DNA from: Candidatus Kapaibacterium sp. | GTDB lineage: Bacteria > Bacteroidota > Ignavibacteria > Kapaibacteriales > UBA4661 | DNA length: 64,000 bases | Reading direction: 5' to 3' | NCBI GenBank assembly: GCA_004292595.1 | Contig: RDXM01000083.1 | Coordinates: 79,215-143,214 of the forward strand | Shown here: piece by piece, positions 1 through 60,802 of the stretch | How the letters are laid out: each line of letters opens with the position of its first letter | How positions within the stretch are numbered: the stretch's first letter is position 1 | The notes under the pieces: model-generated | Database searches by the model: none | What the model was told of the DNA's origin: nothing | The model's input: the letters and a program-made list of their open reading frames with translations, nothing else | Position numbers and translations under genes: made by a program

Positions 1-717
1 TTAGAGCATCTAATTCCTCGCGAGCATTCTCCCAAAAATCAACGGGAATGAAGCCCGCAACATCGCACCGATAGCCGTCAATATCCGCCTCGCGCACCCA
101 GTATTTGAGCGCATCGGTCATATATTTGCGCAATTCAGGTTTATTGTAATCAAAATCAATAATGTCATCCCAATCATACCAAGGAGTAGGCTGGAAGTGC
201 CCTTCGGCGGATTTGCTGTACCAGTCGGGATGCTGCTCCACAAGCGCGTTATCCCACGCCGAGTGATTCGCAACCCAGTCCAACACGACATACATTCCCA
301 TTCCATGAATTTTTTTTACCAATGCTTTGAATTCTTCCATCGTTCCAAATTCAGGATTCACAGCAAGATAATCCTTTACAGCATAATAACTTCCCTTTGC
401 TCCTTTGCGTTTTTTTTCGCCAATCGGGTGAATTGGCATGAGCCACAAAATATCTACACCCATTGCCTTCAAGCGTGGTAAATGCTGCTCAAACGCCTTA
501 AACGTCCCTTCTTTCGTGTATTGGCGGATGTTTACTTCGTAAATAGTCGCATTTTTGCTCCATTCAGGATGCTTGATTTCAACGTAATTTTTCGGCGTGT
601 ATCGCGCTTCATCACTTGCAGATTGAGTATTCATACGGCTTGTAGAAGATTGCCCACACGCTGTTATGAGCAATAATGTGGTCATTACAACCAAGTGAAT
701 TGGTATGAAAAATTTCA
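1..717 (-). CDS. Alpha-amylase family (GH13) lipoprotein. The C-terminus is truncated by the window edge and the ORF runs off position 1.
   Basis: Reverse-strand translation starts MKFFIPIHLVVMTTLLLITAC, a lipoprotein signal with a Cys. It continues through DILWLMPIHPIGEKKRKG and ends at GYRCDVAGFIP, which matches GH13 conserved region II (GFRxDAA). Confidence 0.75.
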
Positions 718-865
718 TGCGGGGGAAAGGAATGGTGAAAAAAAATCTGACAAAACAATAGAGCGAATGGCAAAGTACAATAATTCCACATATTTGAAAA
801 AGCTCAAAAAAAGTATACTAAAAATGGGTAAAAATTGCATATCGAAAAGTAAAGGAGTTGAGATG

Positions 866-970
866 TAATACCGTTTCTACTGTATTTTGAATACTTTGAT
901 TGTATCAAGGCAGCATGCTGCCTTGTTTCGGAGAATTGAAAGTATTCATTTTACAATCGAAACGGTATTA
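866..970. repeat. Copy 1 of a roughly 105 bp triply nested palindromic intergenic element (core caaggcagcatgctgccttg at 906..925).
   Basis: Three nested inverted repeats: aataccgtttc/gaaacggtatt, tgaatacttt/aaagtattca, and the core caaggcagc-atg-ctgccttg. It is about 90% identical to the reverse complement of 38320..38420. Confidence 0.6.
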
Positions 971-1180: not shown

Positions 1181-1243
1181 AGAAAATGCACAACGCCTGT
1201 AATGCTCATCATTACAGGCGTTGTGCATTTTCTCCCAACACGC
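1181..1243. terminator. Long perfect hairpin (24 bp stem, 5 nt loop) downstream of the minus-strand peroxidase gene.
   Basis: agaaaatgcacaacgcctgtaatg-ctcat-cattacaggcgttgtgcattttct, located 3' of the gene that ends at 1268. Confidence 0.55.
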
Positions 1244-1267: not shown

Positions 1268-2518
1268 TTACCGAAATGGATCGCTATATTTCGGGTCGGT
1301 TATCATTTGATTATCCGTCAATGTGCGTAGAAATGCGAGTAAATCTGCTTTTTGTTGGGCGGAAAGATTGAATTTGAGTGGCTTCCCGTTGGGCATATTG
1401 CCTTCTTTGAGCGCAATTCCTAAATTCGGGTGATTCTTTACGCCGCTATTGTAATGCTCAATTACTTCTTCCAGCGTTGCAAAGCGTCCGTCGTGCATAT
1501 ACGGTGCGGTCAGAGCAATATTTTTCAGCGAAGGAACTTTGAATGTACCAATAAAACGGTCGAAGTTGATTGCTTCGGCAACGCCTTTATCGGTCGTGCT
1601 GACCGAATCAATGCCGTTGGATGTTGTGCCAGGAACGGGATTGATAAACGCCTCGCTCGCATGGCAGCCGATACAGCCCAATCCGCCCTGCGGCTGCGGC
1701 AAAAAGAACAAGCGTTTGCCACTATTTTCGCTGGCGGTGAAATTCGCAAAATCACGAACAGGCTGCGGAACTGCCACTCGCCCACTATCGTATTTGCTTG
1801 ATACACTCACCATTGAGCGAATAAACTGCGCCAGAGCGCGTGAAATCTTGTCGGATGTAATTTCATTTGAACCAAAGGCATTCGTGAAAAGCTGCTTGTA
1901 ATAGTCCTGCCCTTGCACACGCTCCACAACTTGCGCCAGCGTCATGCCCATTTCCGTTTTGTCCTGAAATGGCATCAGTACTTGCTCTTCGAGCGTTGCA
2001 GCGCGTTCATCCCAGAAAAAACGACCGCGCTTGTAAAAGCGAGCATTCGCAAGGCTCATGGAGTGCCGCCGCGTGAGTCCGCCCATAAAACCTTTACTGA
2101 GGCGTTCTTTATCAGAAAAACCTTCCTTTTGCTTGTGGCACGAACCGCAAGAAACAGTGCTATTTGCACTCAAGTTTTTATCGTAAAACAACACTCGCCC
2201 AAGCGTCGCACTGTTATCGGTAATGGAATTACTGGCGGGCGTGTTGTCGCTGCCAAGCGCGGAGGCTTGGTCAATGCCACCCAGTGCATTTGTGGTCAAG
2301 TGCGCTGGGAGCGCAATATTTGCGTAGTTGTAGGGCGTTGCTGGCAGCGTTGGTACTTTTGCGCTTGCTGGCGGATTGGCAACGGGATTGCTCACATTCG
2401 GTGTATTCGTGCAAGCACCGGTAGCAATCACCAGAAACAGACCAAGCCCAAAAGCACGTATTTGTGCGGCATTTATGCTATTTTCCCAAAACGTTTTCAT
2501 AGAGGTTGTAAGGAACAT
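1268..2518 (-). CDS. Di-heme cytochrome c peroxidase (CCP/MauG family).
   Basis: Two CxxCH heme motifs (CGSCHKQ and CIGCHAS), an N-terminal signal peptide, and a length of 416 aa typical for bacterial CCP. Confidence 0.85.
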   Translation of the reverse strand: MFLTTSMKTFWENSINAAQIRAFGLGLFLVIATGACTNTPNVSNPVANPPASAKVPTLPATPYNYANIALPAHLTTNALGGIDQASALGSDNTPASNSITDNSATLGRVLFYDKNLSANSTVSCGSCHKQKEGFSDKERLSKGFMGGLTRRHSMSLANARFYKRGRFFWDERAATLEEQVLMPFQDKTEMGMTLAQVVERVQGQDYYKQLFTNAFGSNEITSDKISRALAQFIRSMVSVSSKYDSGRVAVPQPVRDFANFTASENSGKRLFFLPQPQGGLGCIGCHASEAFINPVPGTTSNGIDSVSTTDKGVAEAINFDRFIGTFKVPSLKNIALTAPYMHDGRFATLEEVIEHYNSGVKNHPNLGIALKEGNMPNGKPLKFNLSAQQKADLLAFLRTLTDNQMITDPKYSDPFR

Positions 2519-2689
2519 TGTGTGAAGAAATGTTTGTGATTTTCATAAACAACACTATTATAGCAGAAAAGTTACACAAATACCGTCTATTTTTCTGTGC
2601 AAATTTCTCGCCCTACCAAAAAAAACATCCTCTTTGTTTCTAAAAAACTATTTGAGGATTTCTGCAAACATGATACATTAGAGTTTATC

Positions 2690-2770
2690 TCGAATAAGGT
2701 TTTTGGGGTTTTGGAGCAAGGCAGCATGCTGCCTTGTTTCGTAAAAAAGTCTATTCGGAATAAAGTCTAT
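2690..2770. repeat. Copy 2 (divergent) of the palindromic core repeat (core gagcaaggcagcatgctgccttgtttcg at 2717..2736).
   Basis: Shares the 28 bp core with the elements at 866..970 and 38320..38420, but the flanks differ (tcgaataag...ctattcggaata). Confidence 0.45.
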
Positions 2771-2848
2771 TGAAAAAATATCGAACACGCACAACACAAC
2801 CAACGCCCACACTCAGACACAACCACATCATATTGAATATATTGAATT

Positions 2849-3322
2849 ATGAACACCGCATCACCTCTTGCTTCTGTCAAAGACCGCTTTGCAACCTTGG
2901 CGCATGAATTTAGCAATTTTTACGACAGTAAACACACATCCTACAAAGAGTTAAATGAATTTGAAACGCGCAAATATTTCATTGATAAATTTTGGGAAAT
3001 CCTTGGGTGGAACACCGATAACAGATTTATTTTCGCAAAAGCTATTCGCACAATGCATTTTGATTCACCAGTAACAAACCGAATTCCCTATCCGAAACTC
3101 AATCTGTTGCAACACTCTGATAAACAAGAACATGACAAAATTGTTCAACTCGTCCAAAAAATGCTGGAAACGCAGGCCAAGCGCAAAACAGCGCGGACAG
3201 ACTTCGAGCGCGAGCAGTTGGAGCAGAGCGCGAGCCGCATAGACAGGGAGATAGACGCGGTGGTCTATCGGTTATACGGTTTGACGGCAGAAGAAATTGC
3301 GCTTGTGGAGCGCGGCGCGTAA
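2849..3322 (+). pseudogene. Probable remnant of a Type IIG/Eco57I-like restriction-modification gene, with N- and C-termini joined and the catalytic core deleted.
   Basis: The N-terminus ETRKYFIDKFWEILGWN resembles the HsdR/Type IIG N-terminal motif (ETR..FI...L.aLGW). The C-terminus KIVQLVQKMLETQAK...IDREIDAVVYRLYGLTAEEIALVE is the canonical C-terminal tail of Eco57I/PglX-type N6-methyltransferase-endonucleases. Only 157 aa lie between them. Confidence 0.45.
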
Positions 3323-5562: not shown

Positions 5563-7431
5563 CTATTGGGTCAATCTTGACGGTCTATTCTGATTGTTGG
5601 TTGTGCGAAAGCGTTGTACAATCTCTCGAAGCATCTGCGCGTGGCTTGCTAATTCTTCCGATGCGGCTGCTGATTCCTCTGCGCTTGCGCTGGTGGTTTG
5701 GACAACCTGTGAAATATGCTCTACGCCTTTGCTAATTTGCGAAATACCACTTGATTGGTCTTTTGCGGCAATCACGATTTCGTTCATTACCGTTTGCACA
5801 TTGGCAGAACGCTCTTGAATACTCTGCAACGCCTTGGCTGTCTCACCCGTCAGCTGCTCACTAATGACGATTTGGTTCAACGCAGCATCAATCATAATTG
5901 CTGTTTCTCGGGCAGCTTTCGCGCTTCTGTTAGCGAGATTACGGACTTCTTCTGCTACGACCGCAAAGCCTTTGCCGTGCCGTCCAGCGCGAGCGGCTTC
6001 TACGGCGGCATTCAGAGCGAGAAGATTTGTTTGAAAAGCAATTTCATCAATTACTTTAATTACCTTACTAATTTCGCGGCTGGAGCGGCTTAATTCCTGA
6101 ATCGAACTGACAAGATTATTCATCTGCGCAACGCCGTCGAATGCGGCTTTGGCAGTATTTTTTGTGAGCGTTTCCGCTTCGGTCGCTTGCATTGAACTTT
6201 GCCGCGCTTGCCCACTAATTTCGTTCAATGATGCACTAATTTCTTCCAACGACGCAGCTTGTTCGGTTGCACCAGAAGAGAGCGAGTGGCTGGTGTCGGC
6301 AAGGTAGGTTGAGCTTTCGCTCACATCCGATGCCGCCGCCGCTACTTGTTGAATAATTTCATTCATGGTGCGCACGGTTTCGTTCAAGGTATCGCTCATC
6401 CGAGCAAATTCACCAGAATACTGTCCATTCATGCCAACGGTTAAATTTCCATCGGCAACATCCGTCAGCACAAGCGAAGCCTCTTGCAGGGGCTTAACAA
6501 CTGCTTCCATAAGTTCATTCACGCCAACAACAACCGTGCGGAACTCACCCTGATATTCGGCAGCATTGGTGCGGATGCTTAAATTGCCTACGCGGGCAGC
6601 ATTGCTCAGATTTTTCAGGTCTGCGACCAAGCGTTTAATCGTTTGCTGCATCAGTGCCATAGAGCGAAGTAACTCGCCAAGTTCGTCGTTGCGCAGCACA
6701 TCAATTTCTGTATTCATATCGCCAGCAGCAATTTTCCCCACCGTTTGGACGCTTTCCGCCAGTGGTTTGGTGATACTGCGCGTGAGAAAGACCGCCGCAC
6801 CGATGGCAATAACCATACCGATAATACCAGCAAGAATGAGAAAATTCCGTGTTTGCTCGGCATTGACTTGGGCAGCATCACCAGTTTTCGTTGCTAATTG
6901 TTGTTGCCAATTTGCAAGCTCTTGGCAGGCACGCAGATACTCTGTCCGCGCGGGTGCAAATTCTTGTGTGTATTGTGCTTTAATTTGCGTGTCAAATGTC
7001 GCCGTTCTTCTCGCTGCTGCAAGTATAGCATTTAATTTTTTCAAATATGCTTCGCGTGCTTCGATGAGCTTTTGAAAGCGTATTTTACCACCTTCGGTTG
7101 TAATTTTTGCTTTCAAGAGCTGGATATGTTCAGTAATCTCCATTCGTCGCCGTTCTACATTCGCAATTTCCTGTTCAATTTGCTGCTTTTCAACGGGATT
7201 CGTTCCATCAAGAACCCCAACAAGCAATACTGATTCTGCGTTGGACTGCGCCAACTGCATAATCTGCATGGCAGCATTGATTTTCGGCATTTTATCATCA
7301 ACAACATTCGTTACGTCGTTGGCAACATTCGTTACCGCATTTACACCCAAAAGAATGCAAAAAGACAATAAAACCAAAACTGTTCCAAAGCCAAGCATGA
7401 GGCGCGTCGAAATTTTTATCGAATTCAACAT
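5563..7431 (-). CDS. Methyl-accepting chemotaxis protein (TM - HAMP - MA domain).
   Basis: The conserved MCP signalling core [35 protein letters not shown] is present, along with an N-terminal TM helix. The likely start is the internal Met (MLNSIKISTRL) rather than the track start at 7509, which adds a poly-Thr extension. Confidence 0.85.
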   Translation of the reverse strand: MLNSIKISTRLMLGFGTVLVLLSFCILLGVNAVTNVANDVTNVVDDKMPKINAAMQIMQLAQSNAESVLLVGVLDGTNPVEKQQIEQEIANVERRRMEITEHIQLLKAKITTEGGKIRFQKLIEAREAYLKKLNAILAAARRTATFDTQIKAQYTQEFAPARTEYLRACQELANWQQQLATKTGDAAQVNAEQTRNFLILAGIIGMVIAIGAAVFLTRSITKPLAESVQTVGKIAAGDMNTEIDVLRNDELGELLRSMALMQQTIKRLVADLKNLSNAARVGNLSIRTNAAEYQGEFRTVVVGVNELMEAVVKPLQEASLVLTDVADGNLTVGMNGQYSGEFARMSDTLNETVRTMNEIIQQVAAAASDVSESSTYLADTSHSLSSGATEQAASLEEISASLNEISGQARQSSMQATEAETLTKNTAKAAFDGVAQMNNLVSSIQELSRSSREISKVIKVIDEIAFQTNLLALNAAVEAARAGRHGKGFAVVAEEVRNLANRSAKAARETAIMIDAALNQIVISEQLTGETAKALQSIQERSANVQTVMNEIVIAAKDQSSGISQISKGVEHISQVVQTTSASAEESAAASEELASHAQMLREIVQRFRTTNNQNRPSRLTQ

Positions 7432-21473: not shown

Positions 21474-23630
21474 TTAATAGCGACCAAACTCGCTGTCATC
21501 AAGGCGAATGGTGTCGTGTGCGGCGAGCATTTTTTGCGACGGTGCCGCAAGGTGCGCATCTTCTTTTTCTAACGATGCTTTTCTTGCATTGCCACTAGCA
21601 ACGCCGCTTTGCTGATACGCTTGCCCGCTATAATTCTTGTGCTTTGAAGGCATTTCATGTTTCAGTTTTGGGGAAGAACCATGATGCAATGACCCCGCTC
21701 CAAACGAGGAGTCTTGGCGCAACTGAAAGCGCGAGCTGACAACATTATTCAGTTCAACCGCTTGTTTAGAAAGCTCTTCGGCGGCGGCGGCGCACTCTTC
21801 GGCGGCGGCGGTGTTTTGCTGCGTTACGCGGTCAATCTGCGCAAGCCCAATATTAACTTGCGAAATACCTTGCGCTTGCTCATTCGAGGCAGAAGCAATT
21901 TCACCAACAATATCACGGACTTTCACACTAGCAAGCATGATTTCTTCGAGTGCCTGCGCGGTACGAGCAGCAATTTGTGTGCCTCTATCTGCGGTTTCGA
22001 CCGCAGATTCAATCAAATCTGCTGTTTCTTTCGCCGCTTTCGCGCTGCGTGCTGCCAAGCTCCGCACCTCTTCTGCGACCACCGCAAAACCCTTTCCATG
22101 CCGCCCTGCACGCGCCGCTTCCACAGCCGCATTCAGCGCAAGCAAATTCGTTTGGAAAGCAATTTCGTCAATGACTTTGATAATTTTTGAAATATTTCTG
22201 CTGGATTCGTTAATTGCCGACATTGCACTGCCAAGCTGCTCCATTTCTGCATTTCCACGTTGAGCAATGCTATTTGCATCCAAAGCAACAATATTTGCCT
22301 GATTTGCATTCTCAGCATTGATGCGGGTTTGCGAGGCAAGTTCGTGCATGGAGCCAGTAATTTCTTCCAATGCTGCTGCCTGCTCCGACGCACCATGCGA
22401 GAGCGACGTGCTTGCGTCGGCTACTTGCGACGCGCCACGCGTTACTTGCCCAATAATTTCCATTACATTTTGCAGAACATCAGCAATCGCGCTAATCGTG
22501 GAGTTGATATTTGACTTCAATGCCGCGTGGTCGCCTTTGTAATTGCCTTGCATTGGCTGGCGCAAATCACCCTCAGCCATATGCTTCAGCACCGATACCG
22601 CTTCTTGAATGGGATAAATCGTGGCATCCAACGTAGAATTTACGCCCGCAATAATGTCGCGGTACGCACCGTGAAAATGCTTTTCGTTGCCGCGTGTTTT
22701 CAGGTCGCCGCTTGTGGCAGCCTTTGTCAGCCCGTTGGTTTCTTCGGCAAGGTCTTGAATTGTCTGAACAATTTGCTTCTTCATCCTAGCGAGGTCGCCC
22801 ATTTCATCGAGGTTTGAAATGCTAAAGGAAATATTTTTCAAGTCGCCCACAGCAACCTTCGCATTCACTTCTTGGAGAAGTTTGATGGGCTTGACAAGGA
22901 ATCCGGCAATCAGGAAAATAGCAAGAATAATGCCCGCCGATGACAACCCAACAATCGAAGCAATCACCAAGGATTTTTCCGCCGTTGTTGCCTGTACCTC
23001 GTTCAAGCTCATGCTTACTTCAAATGCTCCATGCACTTCGCCTACTTTCCAGTTTTCCATTTTCGCGCCCGTTATGTCCTTGCCCTCAGAGTTTCCCCAC
23101 AATGCTGCTGATTCTGCTGGGTCGCCATGACATTGCATACATTCTTGCGTCAATTTTATCGGGCGGAAGTAGTGCAGTTGATTGGTGGCAGCATCTATTT
23201 CTTGATATTCGGTCAGCGTACCATCTTCAAGTTTTCTCAGAACAGCAAGCTCATTTGCATTTGGCTCATTGTCGGGATTGCGCGGTTGAATTTTCGGAAC
23301 TTTTATCGTAAAGCCTAGTTCCCGTGCCTTTTTCCGCGCTACTTCCATTGCCGAAAAAATCGGAATAGTATGCAAAATCTGCTCGGTGGTAAAGTTCGAT
23401 GAGCGCACATCTTTGAATACGCCTTGTTTTATCTGGTCGGCGGCATATTCGCGGGCGGACTCTGCCGCATAGACCAGTGTTCGCGCCTTATTCACGAGCG
23501 CATCAGTCGCGGCTTCGCGGTAAATTTTTGAAAAATACCAGTATGAAACAGCACCGCTCGCAAGAGAAATAATGACAATCGGCAAAATAAGTTTCCAGCG
23601 AATAGGCAAAGAAAGCCACCAGTTTTTCAT
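21474..23630 (-). CDS. Methyl-accepting chemotaxis protein with a periplasmic CxxCH (c-type heme) sensor domain (DUF3365/Tll0287-like).
   Basis: TM1, then a periplasmic domain ending [47 protein letters not shown], then TM2, HAMP repeats and the MA core [35 protein letters not shown]. The likely start is the internal Met [10 protein letters not shown]. Confidence 0.8.
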
Positions 23631-23794
23631 GGTATAGTCTCCAAAAATATAGTACAATCGTGTAATACAGTCGTATTGTACAATCAAACACGAAAAAAAT
23701 TTATTGATTTATTGGCACAAAAAGCTCTCTGTTCTTGCTTTCACACCCATTGCGTACCTTGCCCAGAATCTTTCTTGCTCTGAATTATTGCTCT

Positions 23795-23933
23795 CCTCTG
23801 TACACGACAAAACCTCTGAAAGGTGCATAAAATCAGGCTTCAGTGGCTTGAGGCTTCTTGCCTGTGTTTGTCGTCTGAAACCCGCACCAGAATGTCTGTG
23901 CCACTATGAAAGGAGTTTTGTCGTATACAGAGG
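23795..23933. repeat. MITE-like element of about 139 bp with 19 bp terminal inverted repeats (cctctgtacacgacaaaac / gttttgtcgtatacagagg). Copy A.
   Basis: The core taaaatcaggcttcagtggcttgaggcttcttgcctgtgtttgtcgtctgaaacccgca recurs, inverted, at about 31442..31566. The TIRs were read directly. Confidence 0.55.
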
Positions 23934-23954
23934 TTGCTCTCGTTATTGCTCTCA

Positions 23955-27977: not shown

Positions 27978-29219
27978 TTGATGAACACTACTTTGATGAA
28001 CACCATTATACCGTTTGATATACCAACAATGCTTGTAGTAGCGGCTTTGGCAGCATGGAGTATTTTTTTTGTGATTGTTGCTATCAATGGACTTTCCGTG
28101 CAGCTTCTCCGCGATGTGCCATTACTCGTAGCAAAAGAGCAATTACCGAGTTTAAGCGTCATTGCAGCCGCCTGTAATGAAGCAGAAACAATCGAAAAAG
28201 CTCTGTATTCCTTGCTTTCCACCGAATATCCGCGCGTAGAATTTCTCATCGTGAACGACCGCTCTTCCGATGAAACAGGTGCAATTATTGACCGCATTGC
28301 AGCAATAGACAATCGTATCAAGCCCATCCATATCACAACACTTCCCGACGGCTGGCTTGGAAAAGTACACGCCCTTCATGTCGCTTCACAGCAGGCTTCT
28401 GGCGATTTTTTGCTCTTTACCGATGCCGATATACACTTTGCTCCCAACGCACTTACTCTCGCTCTTGGGTACGCCGAGCATCATCGTCTCGACCATTTTG
28501 TCGTGCTGCCAGAAACCCGTAAGCCCTCGCTGTCTAGTGCCGTGCAGCAATGGCTTGTTTCCATAGCAATCGCAGGATTTACCTCGTTGTTCCTTTTTAG
28601 CTTACGTTTATACAGCCTACGGAAGCCGCAATCAGAAGCATTTATCGGGGTTGGAGCGTTTAATCTCGTTCGTAAAAGTGCATTTTTGAAAACACCCGGC
28701 TTTGAATGGCTCAAAATGGAAGTCATTGACGACCTCGGCTTGGGAATGATGATGAAACGCTCTGGAGCGCGGTGCGATGCCGTTAATGGTGTTGGCTTAG
28801 TACATTTAGAGTGGTATGCGACGCTCGGTGCTGTGGCACAGGGATTCGAGAAAAACTTTTTTGCAGGATTTGGGCAATACAGCACACCTGTTATGCTCTG
28901 GCGTATCACGCAAATTGCTGCTATGGTCTATTCTCCCTATTTCGCTGCTCTGTGGGCGTGGTTTGTACAGGGAGAAATGTCCCTTGCGTATGCTATTCTC
29001 TGTGTCCATTTCATTCTACCCGTTATTGCAGCATTCATTCTGCAGAAACGCTTACCATTTCATCCTTTTTTCTTTGGAACGCTCCCTGTATCGTTTTTCC
29101 TCGTTATTGGAATGATGCTGCGTTCAGCATGGAAAACCGTCCGCAACGGCGGTATTCTCTGGCGCGGTACATTTTATCCTCTCGAAACCTTGCGCCGCGA
29201 ACAGCGAATGAAATTGTGA
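27978..29219 (+). CDS. Family 2 glycosyltransferase (GT2/GT21, ceramide-glucosyltransferase-like), polytopic membrane protein.
   Basis: LSVIAAACNEAETI...FLIVNDRSSDET...LLFTDADI (DxD-type) followed by multiple C-terminal TM helices. Confidence 0.7.
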   Translation: MMNTTLMNTIIPFDIPTMLVVAALAAWSIFFVIVAINGLSVQLLRDVPLLVAKEQLPSLSVIAAACNEAETIEKALYSLLSTEYPRVEFLIVNDRSSDETGAIIDRIAAIDNRIKPIHITTLPDGWLGKVHALHVASQQASGDFLLFTDADIHFAPNALTLALGYAEHHRLDHFVVLPETRKPSLSSAVQQWLVSIAIAGFTSLFLFSLRLYSLRKPQSEAFIGVGAFNLVRKSAFLKTPGFEWLKMEVIDDLGLGMMMKRSGARCDAVNGVGLVHLEWYATLGAVAQGFEKNFFAGFGQYSTPVMLWRITQIAAMVYSPYFAALWAWFVQGEMSLAYAILCVHFILPVIAAFILQKRLPFHPFFFGTLPVSFFLVIGMMLRSAWKTVRNGGILWRGTFYPLETLRREQRMKL

Positions 29220-29268
29220 AAATATCGTGGTGAAAATATCGTCGTGAAAATATCGTCGTGAAAAACAT
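29215..29268. repeat. Tandem repeat of the 14 bp unit gtgaaaatatcgtc, about 3.5 copies.
   Basis: tgtgaaaatatcgtggtgaaaatatcgtcgtgaaaatatcgtcgtgaaaaac, immediately after the GT2 stop codon. Confidence 0.5.
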
Positions 29269-30888: not shown

Positions 30889-31425
30889 ATGACTTTTCGC
30901 ATCCGCCCCGCAAGCGAAGCAGACAAGCCGCAAATGCAAGCACTCATCATAGAATCCGTGCGCGAACTGAGCAAAGCCGAATACACGGAGGAGCAAATTC
31001 AAGCCGCGCTGAATACCGTTTTTGGTGTTGATTCTGAACTTATTAAAGATGGAACGTATTTTGCCGTTGAAGAAGAAAATACAATCGTTGCCTGTGGCGG
31101 CTGGAGTAGGCGTAAAACCTTGTTTGGCGGCGACCAGTTTGCTGCACGGGAATCAGAACTTCTCGACCCCACGCGCGATGCCGCGAAAATACGCGCTTTC
31201 TTTGTGCATCCAGCGTGGTCGCGGCGCGGAATTGGTTCGTTGCTCTTGCATCATTGCGAAGAAGCGGCACAGGCGCAAGGATTCACGCGCTTGGAGCTTA
31301 TGGGAACGCTTCCGGGCGTAAAACTCTACCGCGAACATGGCTTCGTTGCTGGTGAAACCATTCAGCATGATGCAGGAAATGGCGTACTTATTCCCTTCGT
31401 ACCGATGTCGAAAACTCTTGAGTAA
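30889..31425 (+). CDS. GNAT family N-acetyltransferase.
   Basis: The start MTFRIRPASEADK, then the acetyl-CoA binding motif RRGIGSLLL. It runs about 178 aa from the internal Met of the track ORF. Confidence 0.8.
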   Translation: MTFRIRPASEADKPQMQALIIESVRELSKAEYTEEQIQAALNTVFGVDSELIKDGTYFAVEEENTIVACGGWSRRKTLFGGDQFAARESELLDPTRDAAKIRAFFVHPAWSRRGIGSLLLHHCEEAAQAQGFTRLELMGTLPGVKLYREHGFVAGETIQHDAGNGVLIPFVPMSKTLE

Positions 31426-31441
31426 AATAAAACACATCTTC

Positions 31442-31566
31442 AATAGTGGCACAGACATTTTTGTCTGTAAGTGTTGATGCGGGTTTCAAGCGACAAACAC
31501 AGGCAAGAAGCCTCAAGCCACTGAAGACTGATTTTACTTGTCTCACAGAGTTTTTGTCGTGTACAA
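31442..31566. repeat. Partial, inverted copy B of the MITE-like element at 23795..23933.
   Basis: The reverse complement matches copy A across gtacacgacaaaa...taaaatcag(t)cttcagtggcttgaggcttcttgcctgtgtttgtcg...aatgtctgtgccactat. The TIR at the GNAT-proximal end is missing. Confidence 0.5.
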
Positions 31567-31613
31567 AGGTCTCCGCTACCGAAGCCAGTTTTTTTCACCT
31601 TTCTTTTTTTGTT

Positions 31614-38205: not shown

Positions 38206-38319
38206 CAAAACATCAATCACTGCCCGCACGAGGAAAAATCCCTGCAACCAAGATTACATCACGCATACAGGCTCACGGACTTCAAAGTGCAAAAATCAAA
38301 AAACAGCCTTCAACACCTG

Positions 38320-38420
38320 ATACCATTTCGATTGTAAAATGAATAGTTTCAATTCTCCGAAACAAGGCAGCATGCTGCCTTGCTCAAATCAAAGTATTCA
38401 AAATACAGTCAAAACGGTAT
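38320..38420. repeat. Copy 3 of the roughly 105 bp triply nested palindromic element (core at 38363..38382).
   Basis: The reverse complement is about 90% identical to 866..970 over the full length, including all three stem pairs. Confidence 0.6.
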
Positions 38421-38454
38421 GATAAGAGGCTCTTTAAAACGAATTTGCATTGCA

Positions 38455-38499
38455 AAAAGCCCTCAAAACAGCATATTTGCTTGTTTTGAGGGCTTTTTC
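38455..38499. terminator. Bidirectional terminator hairpin.
   Basis: aaaaagccctcaaaacagcatatttgcttgttttgagggcttttt: an 11 bp stem with A and T tracts, between convergent genes. Confidence 0.55.
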
Positions 38500-38596: not shown

Positions 38597-40993
38597 TCAT
38601 CTACCGTGCCGAAGCTGCACTGACCTAGCATTTGTCAATGCTTGTCGGGAAAACGCTCCGCGAGCCGCACCAGAGCCGACATCAAATCCGCTCACCAATT
38701 CCTGCAAAACCTCTGTCAGAGCGCGGAGATTCTCGGTTGCACGGGCGATTTCGCTCAGGCTCGCCGTTGTTTCATTGACCGACGAAGAAACGTGTTCGAC
38801 GTTTTTTGCAATCTGCGCGGCGGTCGAAGATTGCTGTTGCATAGCGTCGGCAGAGCGTTTGACCTTCGTTTCCACCTCCTGCGAACCCGCCAGAATGCCC
38901 GCTAATGCTTCGCCAGCCTGTTTTGCAAGATTCAAGCCTTCGCGCACCTCGTTGTTGCCGCGTTTCATGCCAATCACAGCATCGTTGGTATCGCGCTGAA
39001 TATGCTGAATCGTCCTGCTAATTTGCTTGGTGGCTTCGGCAGTGCGCTCGGCAAGTTTACGGACTTCATCGGCAACAACGGCAAAGCCGCGCCCTTGCTC
39101 ACCAGCTCTTGCCGCTTCTATTGCGGCGTTCAAGGCAAGAAGATTGGTTTGGTCGGCAATTTCTTCAATTACCTGCACGATTTCGCCAATTTCCGCGCTT
39201 GAATTACCCAATTTTTCAACGACTGCGGCGGCTCCGCTCACAACCTTTGCTATTTCTTCAATCTTCGTTACCGCCGCGCCCACTACTCGTGCGCCCTCTG
39301 TGGCATTCGAGCCGTTTTGCTGCGTAATTCGACTGACATCCGATGCGTGATGTGCATTTTCACTCACCGATTCCGCCATTTCTTCGACCGAAGAGGCGAT
39401 TTCCGTTACTTGCGCCGCTTGTTCCTCGCTTGTGGCTGCCATTTCACCAGAGGCAGAACTGATATGCGCTGCAATCGTGCTGGTCTCTTCGACATTCTGA
39501 ATCACTTGCCGCACCAAGCTGCGCACCGCAACAACACTCTGATTGAAGCCCGTCATAATTTTGTTTATATCATCGTCGTTGCCATTGGACTGCACCTCTA
39601 CGGTCAAATCTCCCAAAGAAAATCGCTGCATTGCCTCAAGAATGCGCTTGGTGCTTGCTTCGAGGTATGCTTGCTGCCCTTGAACGGCACGAAGGTTTTC
39701 CATGTCCTTCTCGTGCATGGCTTCTTGCTCGCGGCGCAATTCGGCTCTGGCTTCTTCTACTTTGCGTTCGACGGAGGCTTTTTCCTCTTCTATCTGCCGC
39801 ATCAAACCTTGCTGTTCAGCTAAACGAACCTTTGCTCTTCTGGAAAGAACTATCAAAAAACCAATAATCACCAACAAGGCGAATCCACCTGCGAGTGCAT
39901 TGCGCATGGTGCTTCGTTTCTGCTCTTCTTCTTGGCGCAGCATTTCTTGAACTTCCTGCCGTTTTAATTCGGCAGCTTGGCGCGTGGCATCAAGTTTTTT
40001 GTTATTTTCTTCATTGAAAAGTTCTTCGCTGACTTGATTTAATCGCTGCTGGAAGGTATATGCTTCCTGAAATTTCTGCTGGGCAGCGGCACTTTTTGAC
40101 AAAATTTCCAACGACTCTCGTTGGCGGAGCTTAAATCCCGAACTGCTATCAATCGCTAATGCTTCAAGCCCGTATTTGTAGGATTGTACAAAATCTTTTT
40201 TGTCAAGCATCAATCGCGCCAATCCCGCCAAAATCTCTGAGCGAGAATACAGGTCTCCACCTCGCACCAATGCTTGATTGTAATAATACTGTGCGCTGTC
40301 GAATTGGCGAAGTCGGCGGTAGGTTTCGGCTATATTTGCAAGGTCTTCTGCCATGCCAAGTGTGTCTTTGAAGGCTGTTTCTATTGCCAATGTTTGAAAA
40401 AAGTATGGCAGTGCTGCGGAATTATTCCCCAAGCTACGATAGGTTTCGCCCAAATTATTAGTCGGAGCAGCCATACCGCTCGAATCGCTCATGCTCTGAA
40501 AGAGGCGTAAAGACTCGTTCAAGGCTTTTATTGCTTCGTCGTATTGCTTTTGGTTTTTGTAAATAGTGCCAATCCGATTCAGCGTTTGCGCAATTTTTTT
40601 GACATCGCCTAATTTCTCATACAAACCCTGCGCTTTGATAGCAAACTCAAGTGCTGGAACATAATTTCCCAAACGATATTGCGCATTAGCAATGCTATAC
40701 ACGGCAAGTGCTTCCCCGCGCCGAAACTCCAGTTTTTGAGCCAGTTCCAGCGCTTTCATCCCGTACTCAAGACTTTTCTGTGGTGAAACTCTGGCAAGAT
40801 TATTCGATACCGTCGTCAGCATTTCTACCTTTGTCGTATCATCTTGGCGTTGTTGAATTTGCGTCAATAACGAATCGGTAGAATTTGCAACGACGATAGG
40901 AGGCAATAGCCCCAGAACCAGCGCACATCCTAACAATTTCGCAAAGTTCAATAAAGATGGGAAAAAATTCAGAAGAACAGACAAAAATTTCAT
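38597..40993 (-). CDS. Methyl-accepting chemotaxis protein with a large periplasmic TPR-repeat sensor region.
   Basis: Signal/TM segment, then about 330 aa of TPR-like repeats ([23 protein letters not shown]...), then a TM helix, a long coiled coil, and the MA core [36 protein letters not shown]. Confidence 0.85.
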
Positions 40994-42926: not shown

Positions 42927-43727
42927 ATGGAAACCGTGATTGCAAATACTCTTCAAAATACCGACCTTCTGAACTCTAACTACGACGAGGACGGCACGTA
43001 TTACCCTGAATCCGATGGACAACATATGGCAAATAGTTCCGTACATTTTGAACGCATCGCAACAACGAAATACGGCTTAGAATCGCTCTTTGCTGACCGC
43101 GATGATGTGTTTGTGGCAGGTGATTTATTTTGGTATCCCGTTAAAGGAGAAACGCGCCTTGCTGTCGCACCAGATGTAATGGTAGTGTTTGGTCGTCCGA
43201 ACAATGAGCGAAAATCCTATAAGCAGTGGAATGAAGAGAACATCCCGCCGCAGGTCGTGTTTGAGTTTCTCTCGGAAAGCAATACCGCAGCAGACGTGAT
43301 AAACAAAGCTATCTTTTTCGAGCGTCATGGGGTACAGGAATACTACATTTACGACCTCAGAACAAAGGAACTAAGCGGTTTTATCCGCTACACCGAAAAA
43401 GACAAGCAACTCGAAGAACTAGCGGATATGAACGATTGGAAAAGCCCACGCTTAGGCATTCGCTTCGATATGTCCTCAGGCGAACTGGTGCTGCGCAAGC
43501 CAGATGGAGAGCCGTTCTTGAGCTATGCTGAGGTTGAGCAAGAACTGCAAGAACGCACACGGCAACTGGAGCAAACAGAGGTAAAACTTGAGCAAACAGA
43601 GGTAAAACTTGAGCAAACAGAGGTAAAACTTGAGCAAACACAAATACAACTTTCGGCAAGTGAATCTCGCGCAGCAGCATTGGCAGAAAAACTCCGTGAA
43701 CTCGGCATCAACCCTGATGCACTATAA
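42927..43727 (+). CDS. Uma2 family (DUF820) PD-(D/E)xK endonuclease. Copy 1, with an in-frame 21 bp x3 tandem repeat near the C-terminus.
   Basis: YPESDGQHMANS...DLFWYPVKG...PDVMVVFG...PQVVFEFLSESN is typical Uma2. The peptide repeat QTEVKLE x3 is encoded by gagcaaacagaggtaaaactt x3 at about 43567..43630. Confidence 0.8.
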   Translation: METVIANTLQNTDLLNSNYDEDGTYYPESDGQHMANSSVHFERIATTKYGLESLFADRDDVFVAGDLFWYPVKGETRLAVAPDVMVVFGRPNNERKSYKQWNEENIPPQVVFEFLSESNTAADVINKAIFFERHGVQEYYIYDLRTKELSGFIRYTEKDKQLEELADMNDWKSPRLGIRFDMSSGELVLRKPDGEPFLSYAEVEQELQERTRQLEQTEVKLEQTEVKLEQTEVKLEQTQIQLSASESRAAALAEKLRELGINPDAL

Positions 43728-47984: not shown

Positions 47985-48686
47985 TCACAAAGCATCAGGA
48001 TTCATGCCGAGTTCACGGAGTTTTGCCGCAAGTGTAGCGGTATATGTTTTGGTAGCGTCCAGTTCAGCACGGGTATCATCCAATTCCGCATTAATTTCTG
48101 CATAGCTTAGAAATGGCTCTCCATCAGGCTTTCTGAGGACAAGCTCACCTGACGACATATCAAACATAATCCCCAAGCGCGGACTTTTCCAATCGTTCAT
48201 ATCAGGAATTTCTTCCAGTGCCTCATCGTTTTCAGTGAATCGAATAAGACCGCTTAATTGCTTGTGTTCAAGGTCGTAAACGTAATATTCCTGCACACCG
48301 TATCGCTCAAAAAATGCGGCTTTTCGCATCATTTCTGACTGCGTATTGGAATCAGACAAAAACTCAAACACCACCTGCGGCGGCGTATTTTCTTCGTTCC
48401 ACTGGCGATACGATTTTCGCGCTCCCTTGGGACGACCCAATGCCACCATCACATCAGGCGCGACCGCAATCTTCGTCTTGCCTTTGACGGGATACCAAAA
48501 TAAATCCCCTGCAACAAATACATCATCACGGTTAGCAAAGACAGATTCTATGCCGTGTTTCGTTGTGGTGATGCGCTCAAAGTGTTCAGAACTGTTTGCC
48601 ATGGGTTGTCCATCGGAATCAGGGTAAAAAATATCGCCTTCCCACGACGAGAGATTTGGCAAAGCCTGTAAAGTTGCGGTTTCCAT
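47985..48686 (-). CDS. Uma2 family endonuclease. Copy 2, an inverted paralog of 42927..43727 that lacks the tandem repeat.
   Basis: About 75% amino-acid identity to copy 1 along the whole length (YPDSDGQPMANS...DLFWYPVKG...). The start is taken at METATLQ. Confidence 0.8.
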   Translation of the reverse strand: METATLQALPNLSSWEGDIFYPDSDGQPMANSSEHFERITTTKHGIESVFANRDDVFVAGDLFWYPVKGKTKIAVAPDVMVALGRPKGARKSYRQWNEENTPPQVVFEFLSDSNTQSEMMRKAAFFERYGVQEYYVYDLEHKQLSGLIRFTENDEALEEIPDMNDWKSPRLGIMFDMSSGELVLRKPDGEPFLSYAEINAELDDTRAELDATKTYTATLAAKLRELGMNPDAL

Positions 48687-58454: not shown

Positions 58455-58650
58455 CCCGTAACTGGTCAGGTCATAATTTTTTTGGACGCAGATGAAGATG
58501 ATGGAATGGATGAAGATGATAAAAAAGCAAAAAATATCACAGATGGGATGAGGTATGTATTCATTCCTTTATTCTCTCATCTTCATCCATCCAATCATCT
58601 TCATCTGCGTCCCCATCTTCATTGCTGAGACCTGACCAGTTACGATTTTC
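58455..58650. repeat. Long imperfect inverted repeat (about 65 bp arms, about 55 bp spacer) in the sucA upstream region.
   Basis: The arms are ccgtaactggtcaggtcat...gacgcagatgaagatgatggaatggatgaagatgat and atcatcttcatccatccaatcatcttcatctgcgtc...gacctgaccagttacg. The spurious track ORF 58353..58628 covers this region. Confidence 0.5.
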
Positions 58651-60618: not shown

Positions 60619-60802
60619 CTACGTTTGCTCATCAGAGATCTGAAAAGCTCATGAAAAGCGCATAAATACTAATTAGGACTTTCGCAAAACGTGCTTTTGA
60701 AGCTCACAGACAGGAATGTCTGTGCCACCAAAGCCAGTATTTATCAGTTTTGTAGTGGCACAGGCATTCTTGCCTGTGAGGTTTGCGAAAGTCCTACTAA
60801 TG

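What the first reader, a model, noticed from the sequence alone, without database searches (positions are those of the whole stretch)
866..970. Roughly 105 bp triply nested palindromic element present three times (866..970, 2690..2770, 38320..38420)
Sites 1 and 3 are about 90% identical in inverted orientation over about 105 bp. Each is an almost perfect nested palindrome with three concentric stem pairs around the core caaggcagcATGctgccttg. Site 2 retains only the 28 bp core with different flanks. All three sit in intergenic regions at gene ends. Such elements could be REP/BIME-like repeats, a structured small RNA family, or a MITE. The extreme symmetry, making both strands equivalent hairpins, and the conserved core argue for selection rather than chance.
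Basis: seen in the sequence. Interest (0 to 1): 0.6.

Follow-up and report, generated by a model that had tools for sequence, protein, structure and literature searches.

The report
Mobile foldback repeats sharing one palindrome
The three sites are copies of two small non-coding jumping-DNA elements (MITEs) from an uncultured Bacteroidota lineage; the kind is ordinary, but several unrelated element families carry the same 20-base palindrome, which in other Bacteroidota sits inside a tyrosine-transposase gene.

Summary
Sites 1 and 3 are 93% identical in inverted orientation and form nested hairpins. The 20-nt perfect palindrome CAAGGCAGCATGCTGCCTTG occurs three times (0.01 expected).

Site 2 was misread. 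It is a complete 89-nt copy of a second, more abundant family (B). Sites 1 and 3 are 99-nt copies of family A.

A genome scan found the palindrome at least 40 times in three Kapaibacteriaceae MAGs, always at the centre of an inverted-repeat element (families A to D). Family A ends in TACCG...CGGTA and is flanked by 3-bp direct duplications (TNA, 5/6 copies). Family B ends in AGAG...GTCT with AWT/ATG duplications (23/24). In one MAG, 18 of 21 B copies are identical. All copies are intergenic, with no orientation bias. There is no Rfam match and no terminator call. These features fit MITEs mobilised in trans, with recent activity. No partner transposase was found.

In other Bacteroidota the same palindrome and compensated variants occur as solo hairpins. 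They also lie in different reading frames at fixed positions inside Y1 (IS200/RAYT-like) transposase domains. The core is therefore probably a REP-type hairpin embedded in TSD-making MITEs. Whether Kapaibacteriaceae encode that enzyme could not be tested.

The parts
866..868 (.). Left flanking trinucleotide of family A copy 1 (TAA). The expected target-site duplication is degraded here: the right side reads TTA.
   Evidence: It is also the stop codon of the doubtful 57-aa ORF 695-868.
869..967 (+). Family A foldback MITE, copy 1, 99 nt, polarity on the + strand. Ends are TACCGTTTC...GAAACGGTA. It has an outer 12-13 bp stem, a middle stem (GAATACTTT / AAAGTATTC) and the central palindrome.
   Evidence: (I9). 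It is 96% identical to L006, L010, L018 and L035 of MAG JAAFIV01.
906..925 (.). Core: 20-nt perfect palindrome CAAGGCAGCATGCTGCCTTG, followed by TTTCGG.
968..970 (.). Right flanking trinucleotide of copy 1 (TTA).
2677..2679 (.). Left target-site duplication of the family B copy (ATT).
2680..2768 (+). Family B foldback MITE, complete 89-nt copy, polarity on the + strand. Ends are AGAGTTTATCTCGAATA...TATTCGGAATAAAGTCT.
   Evidence: It differs at 3 of 89 positions from the consensus of 21 JAAFIV01 copies.
2717..2736 (.). Core palindrome in the family B copy, followed by TTTCG.
2769..2771 (.). Right target-site duplication of the family B copy (ATT).
38318..38320 (.). Target-site duplication of family A copy 2 (TGA on the + strand).
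38321..38419 (-). Family A foldback MITE, copy 2, 99 nt, polarity on the - strand. It lies between the stop of the histidine kinase gene (38205) and a separate hairpin followed by a T-run (about 38447-38497) that precedes the convergent MCP gene.
   Evidence: (I2).
38363..38382 (.). Core palindrome in family A copy 2.
38420..38422 (.). Second copy of the target-site duplication of family A copy 2 (TGA).

Best explanation
The three sites are copies of two families of miniature inverted-repeat transposable elements (foldback MITEs). The host genome belongs to the Kapaibacteriaceae (Bacteroidota).

The elements are 99 nt (family A, sites 1 and 3) and 89 nt (family B, site 2). They encode nothing and end in inverted repeats.

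The inferred mechanism is cut-and-insertion by a transposase supplied in trans. That enzyme would make a 3-bp staggered cut at a short degenerate target (TNA for family A, AWT/ATG for family B), and repair of the gap leaves the 3-bp direct duplication. A TNA 3-bp duplication is what IS5-type (IS1031 group) and PIF/Harbinger-Tourist elements leave, so an IS5-like DDE enzyme is the best guess for family A. This comparison rests on my own knowledge.

Insertions survive in intergenic DNA, often right after stop codons or upstream of gene starts. Any transcript that includes an element would carry a very stable hairpin.

The invariant 20-nt central palindrome followed by TTT is a separate module shared by at least four families whose arms are unrelated. 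Elsewhere in Bacteroidota it occurs as a REP-like hairpin tied to a Y1 (IS200/RAYT-like) HUH enzyme family.

Shown: anatomy, termini, duplications, copy number, recent amplification, intergenic location and the link between the core and Y1 genes in other Bacteroidota.

Inferred: the type of transposase, and any role of the core.
For: - Copy number: the core occurs at 3 sites in the window against 0.01 expected.
- Every one of those copies sits at the centre of an inverted-repeat element with sharp ends.
- Flanking 3-bp direct repeats are identical in 5/6 family A copies (TTA, TTA, TCA, TAA, TCA) and 23/24 family B copies (ATT, AAT, ATG). The repeat sequence varies between copies but matches on the two sides of each copy.
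- Two family B copies inserted into tandem repeats (L007, L023). The neighbouring uninterrupted unit shows the target trinucleotide only once, which serves as an internal empty site.
- 18 of 21 family B copies in JAAFIV01 are identical and the other 3 differ by one base. Three of the four JAAFIV01 family A copies are identical.
- An orthologous gene end in another MAG lacks the element.
- Arm sequences never occur without the core, and never as the ends of a longer unit, in about 390 kb of held sequence.
- All copies are intergenic.
- A short-read assembly of the window's own genome breaks inside site 3, as expected for a multi-copy repeat.
Against: - No autonomous element or transposase with matching terminal repeats was found. 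There are no multi-copy proteins among the loci, and the family A terminal-repeat pattern has no match in JGI metagenomes.
- The termini do not resemble any IS ends I can name.
- In ordinary MITEs the termini are the conserved part. Here the centre is invariant while the arms differ completely between families, which a simple deletion-derivative origin does not explain.
- Families C and D show no clear 3-bp duplication. Family C is compatible with a TA target; the boundaries of family D are uncertain.
- The apparent invariance of the core within families is partly an ascertainment effect, because loci were fetched by exact core match.
Confidence: 0.8

Rival explanations
1. REPIN/BIME-type elements. 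On this reading the whole foldback unit is mobilised as single-stranded DNA by a domesticated Y1 (RAYT-like) HUH transposase that recognises the central hairpin.
For: - The identical 20-mer and its compensated variants (CAAGGGAGCATGCTCCCTTG, CAAGGGGATTAATCCTCTTG) lie inside Y1_Tnp (PF01797) domains in L021, L029, L043, L048 and L044. They sit at two fixed loop positions and in different reading frames.
- The same palindrome occurs as solo or clustered hairpins in other Bacteroidota.
- REP insertions inside tnpA_REP genes are known for a cyanobacterial/Bacteroidetes subclass (PMC6006769).
- The core has a fixed polarity (core followed by TTT) in all families.
Against: - Y1 transposition and REP/REPIN spread leave no target duplications (my own knowledge). 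Here 28 of 30 copies have variable but matching 3-bp duplications at the outer ends of the arms.
- No Y1 homologue is present in the window or in 38 Kapaibacteriaceae loci.
- None of 120 family members carries a Kapaibacteriaceae or Ignavibacteria name.
- No GTAG or CGTC tag flanks the hairpin.
- No solo cores occur in Kapaibacteriaceae.
Confidence: 0.1
2. A family of cis-acting RNA hairpins or small RNAs (intrinsic terminators or mRNA stabilisers) kept by selection at gene ends. On this reading mobility is incidental.
For: - The GC-rich 8-bp stem with a 4-nt loop is followed by UUU.
- The polarity strand folds better as RNA than the opposite strand in families A and B, by 5-8 kcal/mol through G-U pairs.
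- Most copies have at least one neighbouring gene pointing towards them, and divergent promoter regions are rare (2 of 30).
Against: - There is no orientation preference relative to transcription: 11 versus 12 in tandem contexts.
- The terminator scan does not call the core because the T-run is too short.
- Site 1 lies downstream of a proper terminator at 1185-1229. Site 3 lies upstream of a separate hairpin followed by a T-run. Site 2 lies between divergent genes.
- There are no Rfam matches beyond generic hairpin noise.
- The strand asymmetry is absent in families C and D.
Confidence: 0.06
3. Terminal repeats or fragments of a larger insertion sequence, or a chance palindrome.
For: None beyond the presence of inverted repeats.
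Against: - Each copy is bounded by duplications 89 or 99 nt apart.
- No arm occurs away from a core.
- Chance expectation for the core is 0.01.
Confidence: 0.01

Closest known systems
Bacterial MITEs of the foldback type (Correia/NEMIS of Neisseria, RUP, ERIC, Nezha; listed in PMC3733652)
   Same: About 100 nt, non-coding, with terminal inverted repeats, short target duplications, dozens of intergenic copies next to genes, and the ability to fold into a long hairpin in a transcript.
   Different: - Correia elements duplicate TA and carry an IHF site (my own knowledge). Here the duplication is 3 bp (TNA or AWT).
- The centre is a 20-nt perfect palindrome shared by families with unrelated arms.
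- No partner IS is known.
- The host is an uncultured Bacteroidota family.
IS5-family (IS1031 group) derivatives and Tourist-like MITEs of PIF/Harbinger (my own knowledge)
   Same: 3-bp target-site duplication with a TNA consensus (family A).
   Different: The termini (TACCGTTT...) do not resemble IS5 or Tourist ends that I can recall. The transposase was not identified. Family B uses AWT/ATG.
REP / REPIN elements with RAYT (Y1 HUH) transposases, including REPs inserted within tnpA_REP genes (PMC6006769)
   Same: The 20-nt core is a short GC-rich palindrome. In other Bacteroidota it is dispersed, forms clusters with other hairpins, and sits inside Y1_Tnp genes with compensatory variants. The 100-nt hairpin size is similar to REPINs.
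   Different: - REP and REPIN elements have no terminal-repeat/duplication signature.
- In REPINs the conserved REPs are at the two ends and the spacer varies. Here the conserved palindrome is central and single.
- The Y1 family here has DHMH / WTQK / Y---N--KH motifs, which do not match any subclass tabulated in PMC6006769. The closest look is subclass 1.2 (Y---Q--HH).
- No such gene has yet been seen in Kapaibacteriaceae.
Rickettsia palindromic elements (RPE; cited in PMC3733652)
   Same: Palindromic repeats that can lie in frame inside protein-coding genes. This is seen here only for the bare core in the Y1 / type IIG restriction-modification genes of other Bacteroidota.
   Different: The window's elements are all intergenic. 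RPEs are 100-150 nt and specific to Rickettsia.

Membership tests
MITE (non-autonomous terminal-repeat transposable element) | Small size (below about 300 bp) with no coding capacity | tested here: met
   Elements are 99 nt and 89 nt. ORFs crossing them are spurious.
MITE (non-autonomous terminal-repeat transposable element) | Terminal inverted repeats | tested here: met
   Family A: TACCGTTTC / GAAACGGTA, extending to about 32 nt at 84% (I9). Family B: AGAGTTTATCTCGAATA against its partner, 16/20.
MITE (non-autonomous terminal-repeat transposable element) | Target-site duplications of fixed length and variable sequence | tested here: met
   28 of 30 copies have identical 3-bp direct repeats. 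Two insertions into tandem repeats act as internal empty sites.
MITE (non-autonomous terminal-repeat transposable element) | Many dispersed copies in a genome | tested here: met
   At least 25 copies on 20 or more scaffolds of JAAFIV01, 12 in JANYDO01 and 3 in JANYIG01.
MITE (non-autonomous terminal-repeat transposable element) | A related autonomous IS with the same termini | tested here: inconclusive
   None was found in about 390 kb of held sequence. The family A terminal pattern is absent from JGI metagenomes. The complete genomes could not be scanned.
IS5 / Harbinger-Tourist type | 3-bp TNA target duplication | tested here: met
   Family A has TTA, TTA, TCA, TAA and TCA. Family B (AWT/ATG) does not fit.
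IS5 / Harbinger-Tourist type | Termini and transposase homologous to IS5-family members | not testable with these tools
   No IS reference library is available and no transposase was found.
REP / REPIN-RAYT system | Short (20-40 nt) palindrome present in many extragenic copies | tested here: met
   Met for the core only.
REP / REPIN-RAYT system | A cognate Y1 (RAYT) gene in the same genome, flanked by or containing the REP | tested here: inconclusive
   Met in other Bacteroidota (L021, L029, L043, L048). Not found in the window or in 38 Kapaibacteriaceae loci. Whole genomes were not searchable.
REP / REPIN-RAYT system | Conserved GTAG or CGTC tag next to the hairpin (PMC3733652) | tested here: not met
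   The flanks are (A/G)(A/G) on the 5' side and TTT or TC on the 3' side.
REP / REPIN-RAYT system | Spread without target-site duplication (my own knowledge) | tested here: not met
   3-bp duplications flank the whole elements.
Described structured RNA family (Rfam) | Match to a covariance model at its gathering score | tested here: not met
   No match in the window at gathering score. In E-value mode there are only sub-threshold matches to generic hairpin models, mostly miRNA.
Intrinsic terminator | GC-rich hairpin followed by a T-run, placed in sense orientation after a gene | tested here: not met
   The T-run is only 3 nt and is not called. Orientation relative to genes is random.

The most novel reading that the evidence does not exclude
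The 20-nt palindrome is the cognate DNA hairpin of a Bacteroidota Y1 (RAYT-like) HUH enzyme family. That family keeps copies of its own hairpin in frame inside its gene, and is often itself inserted in a type IIG restriction-modification gene.

In Kapaibacteriaceae this REP would have been captured at, or targeted to, the single-stranded tip of several unrelated duplication-making foldback MITEs. The result would be chimeric elements that depend on, or are modulated by, two different transposition machineries.
Probability: 0.2. Interest if true: 0.65.

Novelty: new member of a known kind. Interest (0 to 1): 0.4.

Why it matters
As MITEs, these elements matter mainly for practical reasons:
- They mark recent transposition in an uncultured lineage.
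- They break short-read assemblies.
- They place very stable hairpins next to genes, at stop codons and upstream of gene starts, where they could alter expression.

The less ordinary point is that the centre, not the termini, is the invariant part. At least four families with unrelated arms in three or four species share it. The same 20-mer is tied to Y1/RAYT-like genes across Flavobacteriales, Chitinophagales and Bacteroidales.

If that link is functional, it would give a tractable case of a REP-type hairpin moving between mobile-element backbones. It would also offer a defined hairpin substrate for an uncharacterised Y1 family.

Tried and rejected
- Rfam at gathering score on the whole window and in E-value mode on 800-2850 gave nothing meaningful.
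- The consensus terminator and promoter scan does not call the core. Real terminators lie elsewhere.
- Orientation of element polarity relative to flanking genes shows no bias. The "inside ORF" flags from my crude ORF caller were artefacts; the elements lie upstream of the real starts.
- Strand asymmetry of folding is consistent in families A and B but not in C and D, so it is not decisive.
- Search for the autonomous partner:
  - Arm-only BLAST found no arm without a core.
  - All-against-all BLASTP found no multi-copy proteins.
  - The degenerate family A terminal-repeat pattern gave 0 matches in JGI metagenomes.
  - The core gave 0 matches in viral contigs.
- Search for a Y1 gene in Kapaibacteriaceae:
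  - tblastn and hmmsearch of the window and 38 loci were negative.
  - Two protein database searches gave 120 family members, none named as Kapaibacteriaceae or Ignavibacteria.
  - The cluster look-up added only Fluviicola names.
- Exact empty site: the only orthologous gene end found (L027 against L036) lacks the element, but its intergenic DNA is too diverged to align.
- Looking up the window's histidine kinase found only a 1.7-kb contig that ends inside site 3.
- Literature: there is no paper containing the core sequence, and none on MITEs in Ignavibacteria.
- I considered whether ORF 2849-3322 next to site 2, a remnant resembling the C-terminus of type IIG enzymes, links site 2 to the Y1-carrying restriction-modification genes. 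I rejected this as unsupported. The shared motif is generic, Pfam finds nothing, and site 2 has its own target duplication.

Full report
**Observation.**
Reading the three sites and running the repeat finder confirm the main claim. Window 868-968 and 38320-38420 are 93% complementary over 101 nt. Each folds on itself: site 1 has arms 866-897 and 939-970, 84% complementary. The 20-nt perfect palindrome CAAGGCAGCATGCTGCCTTG occurs exactly three times (906, 2717, 38363). Dinucleotide shuffles give 0.01 matches even with three mismatches allowed. As RNA, both strands of sites 1 and 3 fold at -30 to -44 kcal/mol, with z-scores of -5.8 to -8.8. nhmmer profiles find no other copies in the window.

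**Correction of the observation.**
Thirty-eight come from three MAGs of the Kapaibacteriaceae (Bacteroidota): JAAFIV01 'Ignavibacteria bacterium bin62', and JANYDO01 and JANYIG01 'Candidatus Kapaibacterium sp.'. Printing the flanks in register shows that the core always sits at the centre of an inverted-repeat element. There are at least four families with unrelated arms.
- Family A (99 nt) includes window sites 1 and 3 and four JAAFIV01 copies at 96-97% identity.
- Family B (89 nt) includes window site 2 and at least 21 JAAFIV01 copies, plus two diverged JANYDO01 copies.
- Families C and D occur in JANYDO01 and JANYIG01.

Site 2 is therefore a complete member of another family, not a core with random flanks. 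The window itself is not from any of these MAGs. Only a few genes align, at 70-85% nucleotide identity.

**Termini and target duplications.**
Anchoring on the family termini gives these results.
- Family A ends in TACCG...CGGTA. It is flanked by identical 3-bp direct repeats in 5 of 6 copies (TTA, TTA, TCA, TAA, TCA, that is TNA). Window site 1 is the exception, with TAA/TTA.
- Family B ends in AGAG...GTCT. It is flanked by ATT, AAT or ATG in 23 of 24 copies.

The trinucleotide differs between copies but matches on the two sides of each copy. This is the signature of a staggered cut that is filled in, not of a fixed element sequence. Two family B copies lie in short tandem repeats (L007, L023). 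There the neighbouring uninterrupted unit shows the trinucleotide once, which acts as an internal empty site. In window coordinates the elements are:
- 869-967, with flanks 866-868 and 968-970;
- 2680-2768, with flanks 2677-2679 and 2769-2771;
- 38321-38419, with flanks 38318-38320 and 38420-38422.

**Activity.**
In JAAFIV01, 18 of 21 family B copies are identical and three differ by a single base. Three of the four JAAFIV01 family A copies are identical. This points to a recent burst. An orthologous gene end in JANYDO01 lacks the family B copy present in JAAFIV01. A short-read assembly containing the window's histidine kinase stops inside site 3, as expected for a multi-copy repeat.

**Context.**
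All copies are intergenic.
- Site 1 lies between the proper terminator of the cytochrome c peroxidase gene (1185-1229) and the start of an alpha-amylase-like gene on the minus strand.
- Site 2 lies between divergently oriented ORFs.
- Site 3 lies between the histidine kinase stop and a separate hairpin followed by a T-run, ahead of the convergent MCP gene.

Across 30 copies with two callable neighbours, tandem contexts dominate (23), convergent contexts number 5 and divergent contexts 2. The polarity of the element (core followed by TTT) is random relative to transcription, 11 against 12. Many copies abut a stop codon, which fits the TNA target.

**RNA readings.**
Rfam gives nothing at gathering score. 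In E-value mode it gives only sub-threshold matches to generic hairpin models. The terminator scan does not call the core, because three T residues are too few. The polarity strand folds better as RNA in families A and B, through G-U pairs, but not consistently in families C and D. Together with the random orientation, this gives no support for a small-RNA or terminator family. Any transcript that runs through an element would still carry a strong hairpin.

**The core elsewhere.**
The few hits outside the Kapaibacteriaceae were unexpectedly informative. In L021 (Bacteroidales), L029 (Chitinophaga), L043 (Flavobacteriaceae) and the metagenome contig L048, the 20-mer and a compensated variant, CAAGGGAGCATGCTCCCTTG, occur several times within one long ORF. 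Pfam shows that the ORFs tested (L021 and L043) are Eco57I/MmeI-type restriction-modification methylases. Each carries a Y1_Tnp (PF01797, IS200-like) domain inserted between the methylase motifs.

The palindromes sit at two fixed loop positions of the Y1 domain but in different reading frames (TRQHAAL, QQGSMLPC, TREHAPL, NKGACSL). What is conserved is therefore the DNA, not the peptide.

The Y1 segment has about 120 homologous clusters. Most are stand-alone proteins of roughly 200 aa, which JGI labels 'REP element-mobilizing transposase RayT'. The HUH histidines and the tyrosine are invariant. About half carry KGINPL in the same loop. In Fluviicola taffensis that peptide is encoded by the near-palindrome CAAGGGGATTAATCCTCTTG.

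In other contigs the core is a solo hairpin or sits beside other hairpins with the same CAAGG...CCTTG foot. REP insertions inside tnpA_REP genes have been described for a cyanobacterial/Bacteroidetes RAYT subclass (PMC6006769). I therefore infer that the core is a REP-type hairpin cognate to this Y1 family.

I could not test whether Kapaibacteriaceae encode such an enzyme.
- None is present in the window or in the 38 loci.
- None of the database homologues is named as coming from that lineage.

**Interpretation.**
The best-supported reading (confidence about 0.8) is that the finding consists of copies of two foldback MITE families. They would be mobilised in trans by a transposase that makes 3-bp staggered cuts. 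For family A this is probably IS5-like, judging by the TNA duplication, although that comparison rests on my own knowledge.

No autonomous partner was found. One feature also remains unexplained by a plain MITE model: the centre is invariant across families whose arms are unrelated.

The REPIN/RAYT reading accounts for the core but conflicts with the duplications. I give it about 0.1 as an explanation of the whole element. A chimeric origin, in which a REP was captured at the hairpin tip of MITEs, is the most novel reading that the evidence does not exclude (probability about 0.2).

**Verdict.**
The feature is real and mobile. In kind it is ordinary: a new MITE family in an uncultured lineage. 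It carries one unusual trait worth a follow-up. The literature held here has no paper containing the core sequence and none on MITEs in Ignavibacteria.

Noticed in passing
L021 36-3812, L043 60-2429, L029 about 240-960 (minus strand), L048 753-1472: Type IIG (Eco57I/MmeI-like) restriction-modification ORFs in three Bacteroidota orders (Pfam tested on L021 and L043 only) carry a Y1_Tnp (IS200/RAYT-like) domain inserted in frame between the methylase motifs. REP-like palindromes lie in frame inside them, in different reading frames and sometimes in tandem (three in L021). L048 is a partial Y1 ORF with the same palindromes.
   Followed up: partly
L044 6001-6555 (Fluviicola taffensis CP002542) and proteins P0001-P0120: A family of about 120 clusters of Y1 proteins, roughly 200 aa each, with DHMH / WTQK / Y---N--KH motifs. 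Their variable loop encodes lineage-specific palindromes (KGINPL, TRGHAPL, KGTCPL and others). The motif set matches no subclass tabulated in PMC6006769; subclass 1.2 looks closest.
   Followed up: partly
window 23786-23935 and 31422-31569 (inverted), fragment at 60703-60728; L002 7518-7681, L023 6924-7079, L028, L032, L038: Another foldback repeat family of about 150 nt, without the core. It has ends like CTGTACACGACAAAA or ATACAGATTAGC and an inner hairpin GTGGCACAGAC...GTCTGTGCCAC. In JAAFIV01 it often lies directly next to family B copies.
   Followed up: partly
window 58484-58622; L011 and L027 flanks: A third palindromic repeat type, with arms GGACGCAGATGAAG...CTTCATCTGCGTCC (41-nt arms, 90% complementary). 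Similar elements lie beside family B copies in JAAFIV01.
   Followed up: no
window 1181-1233: A perfect 24-bp inverted repeat with a 5-nt loop followed by a T-run on the minus strand. It is the likely intrinsic terminator of the di-haem cytochrome c peroxidase gene (1268-2518, minus strand).
   Followed up: yes
window 2849-3322: A 157-aa ORF whose last 32 residues resemble the C-terminus of type IIG restriction-modification enzymes (53% identity to L021). It has no Pfam domain and may be a remnant of a deleted restriction-modification gene, 78 nt downstream of the family B copy.
   Followed up: partly
window 43001-43552 and 48076-48627; 43543-43668: A 552-nt inverted pair at 76% identity (paralogous genes facing each other), and five 21-nt tandem units (AACTTGAGCAAACAGAGGTAA) at the edge of one arm.
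   Followed up: no
window 29216-29264: A short tandem repeat of period 14 (GTGAAAATATCGTC), roughly three to four units.
   Followed up: no
window 5881-6300, 22002-22421, 39051-39202: Three regions at 70-74% nucleotide identity. One (39051-39202) lies in the gene at 38597-40993, which carries the MCP signalling domain. They may be paralogous chemoreceptor genes, and similar stretches occur in several Kapaibacteriaceae loci.
   Followed up: no
L049 3863 and L050 2772 (PDWI01 metagenome contigs): The core is followed in both contigs by the same sequence, TT(G/T)TTCAATCCCCC(T/C)GCCCCCTTTTCTAA, and sits among other GC-rich hairpins. This is a BIME-like mosaic in an unidentified organism.
   Followed up: no
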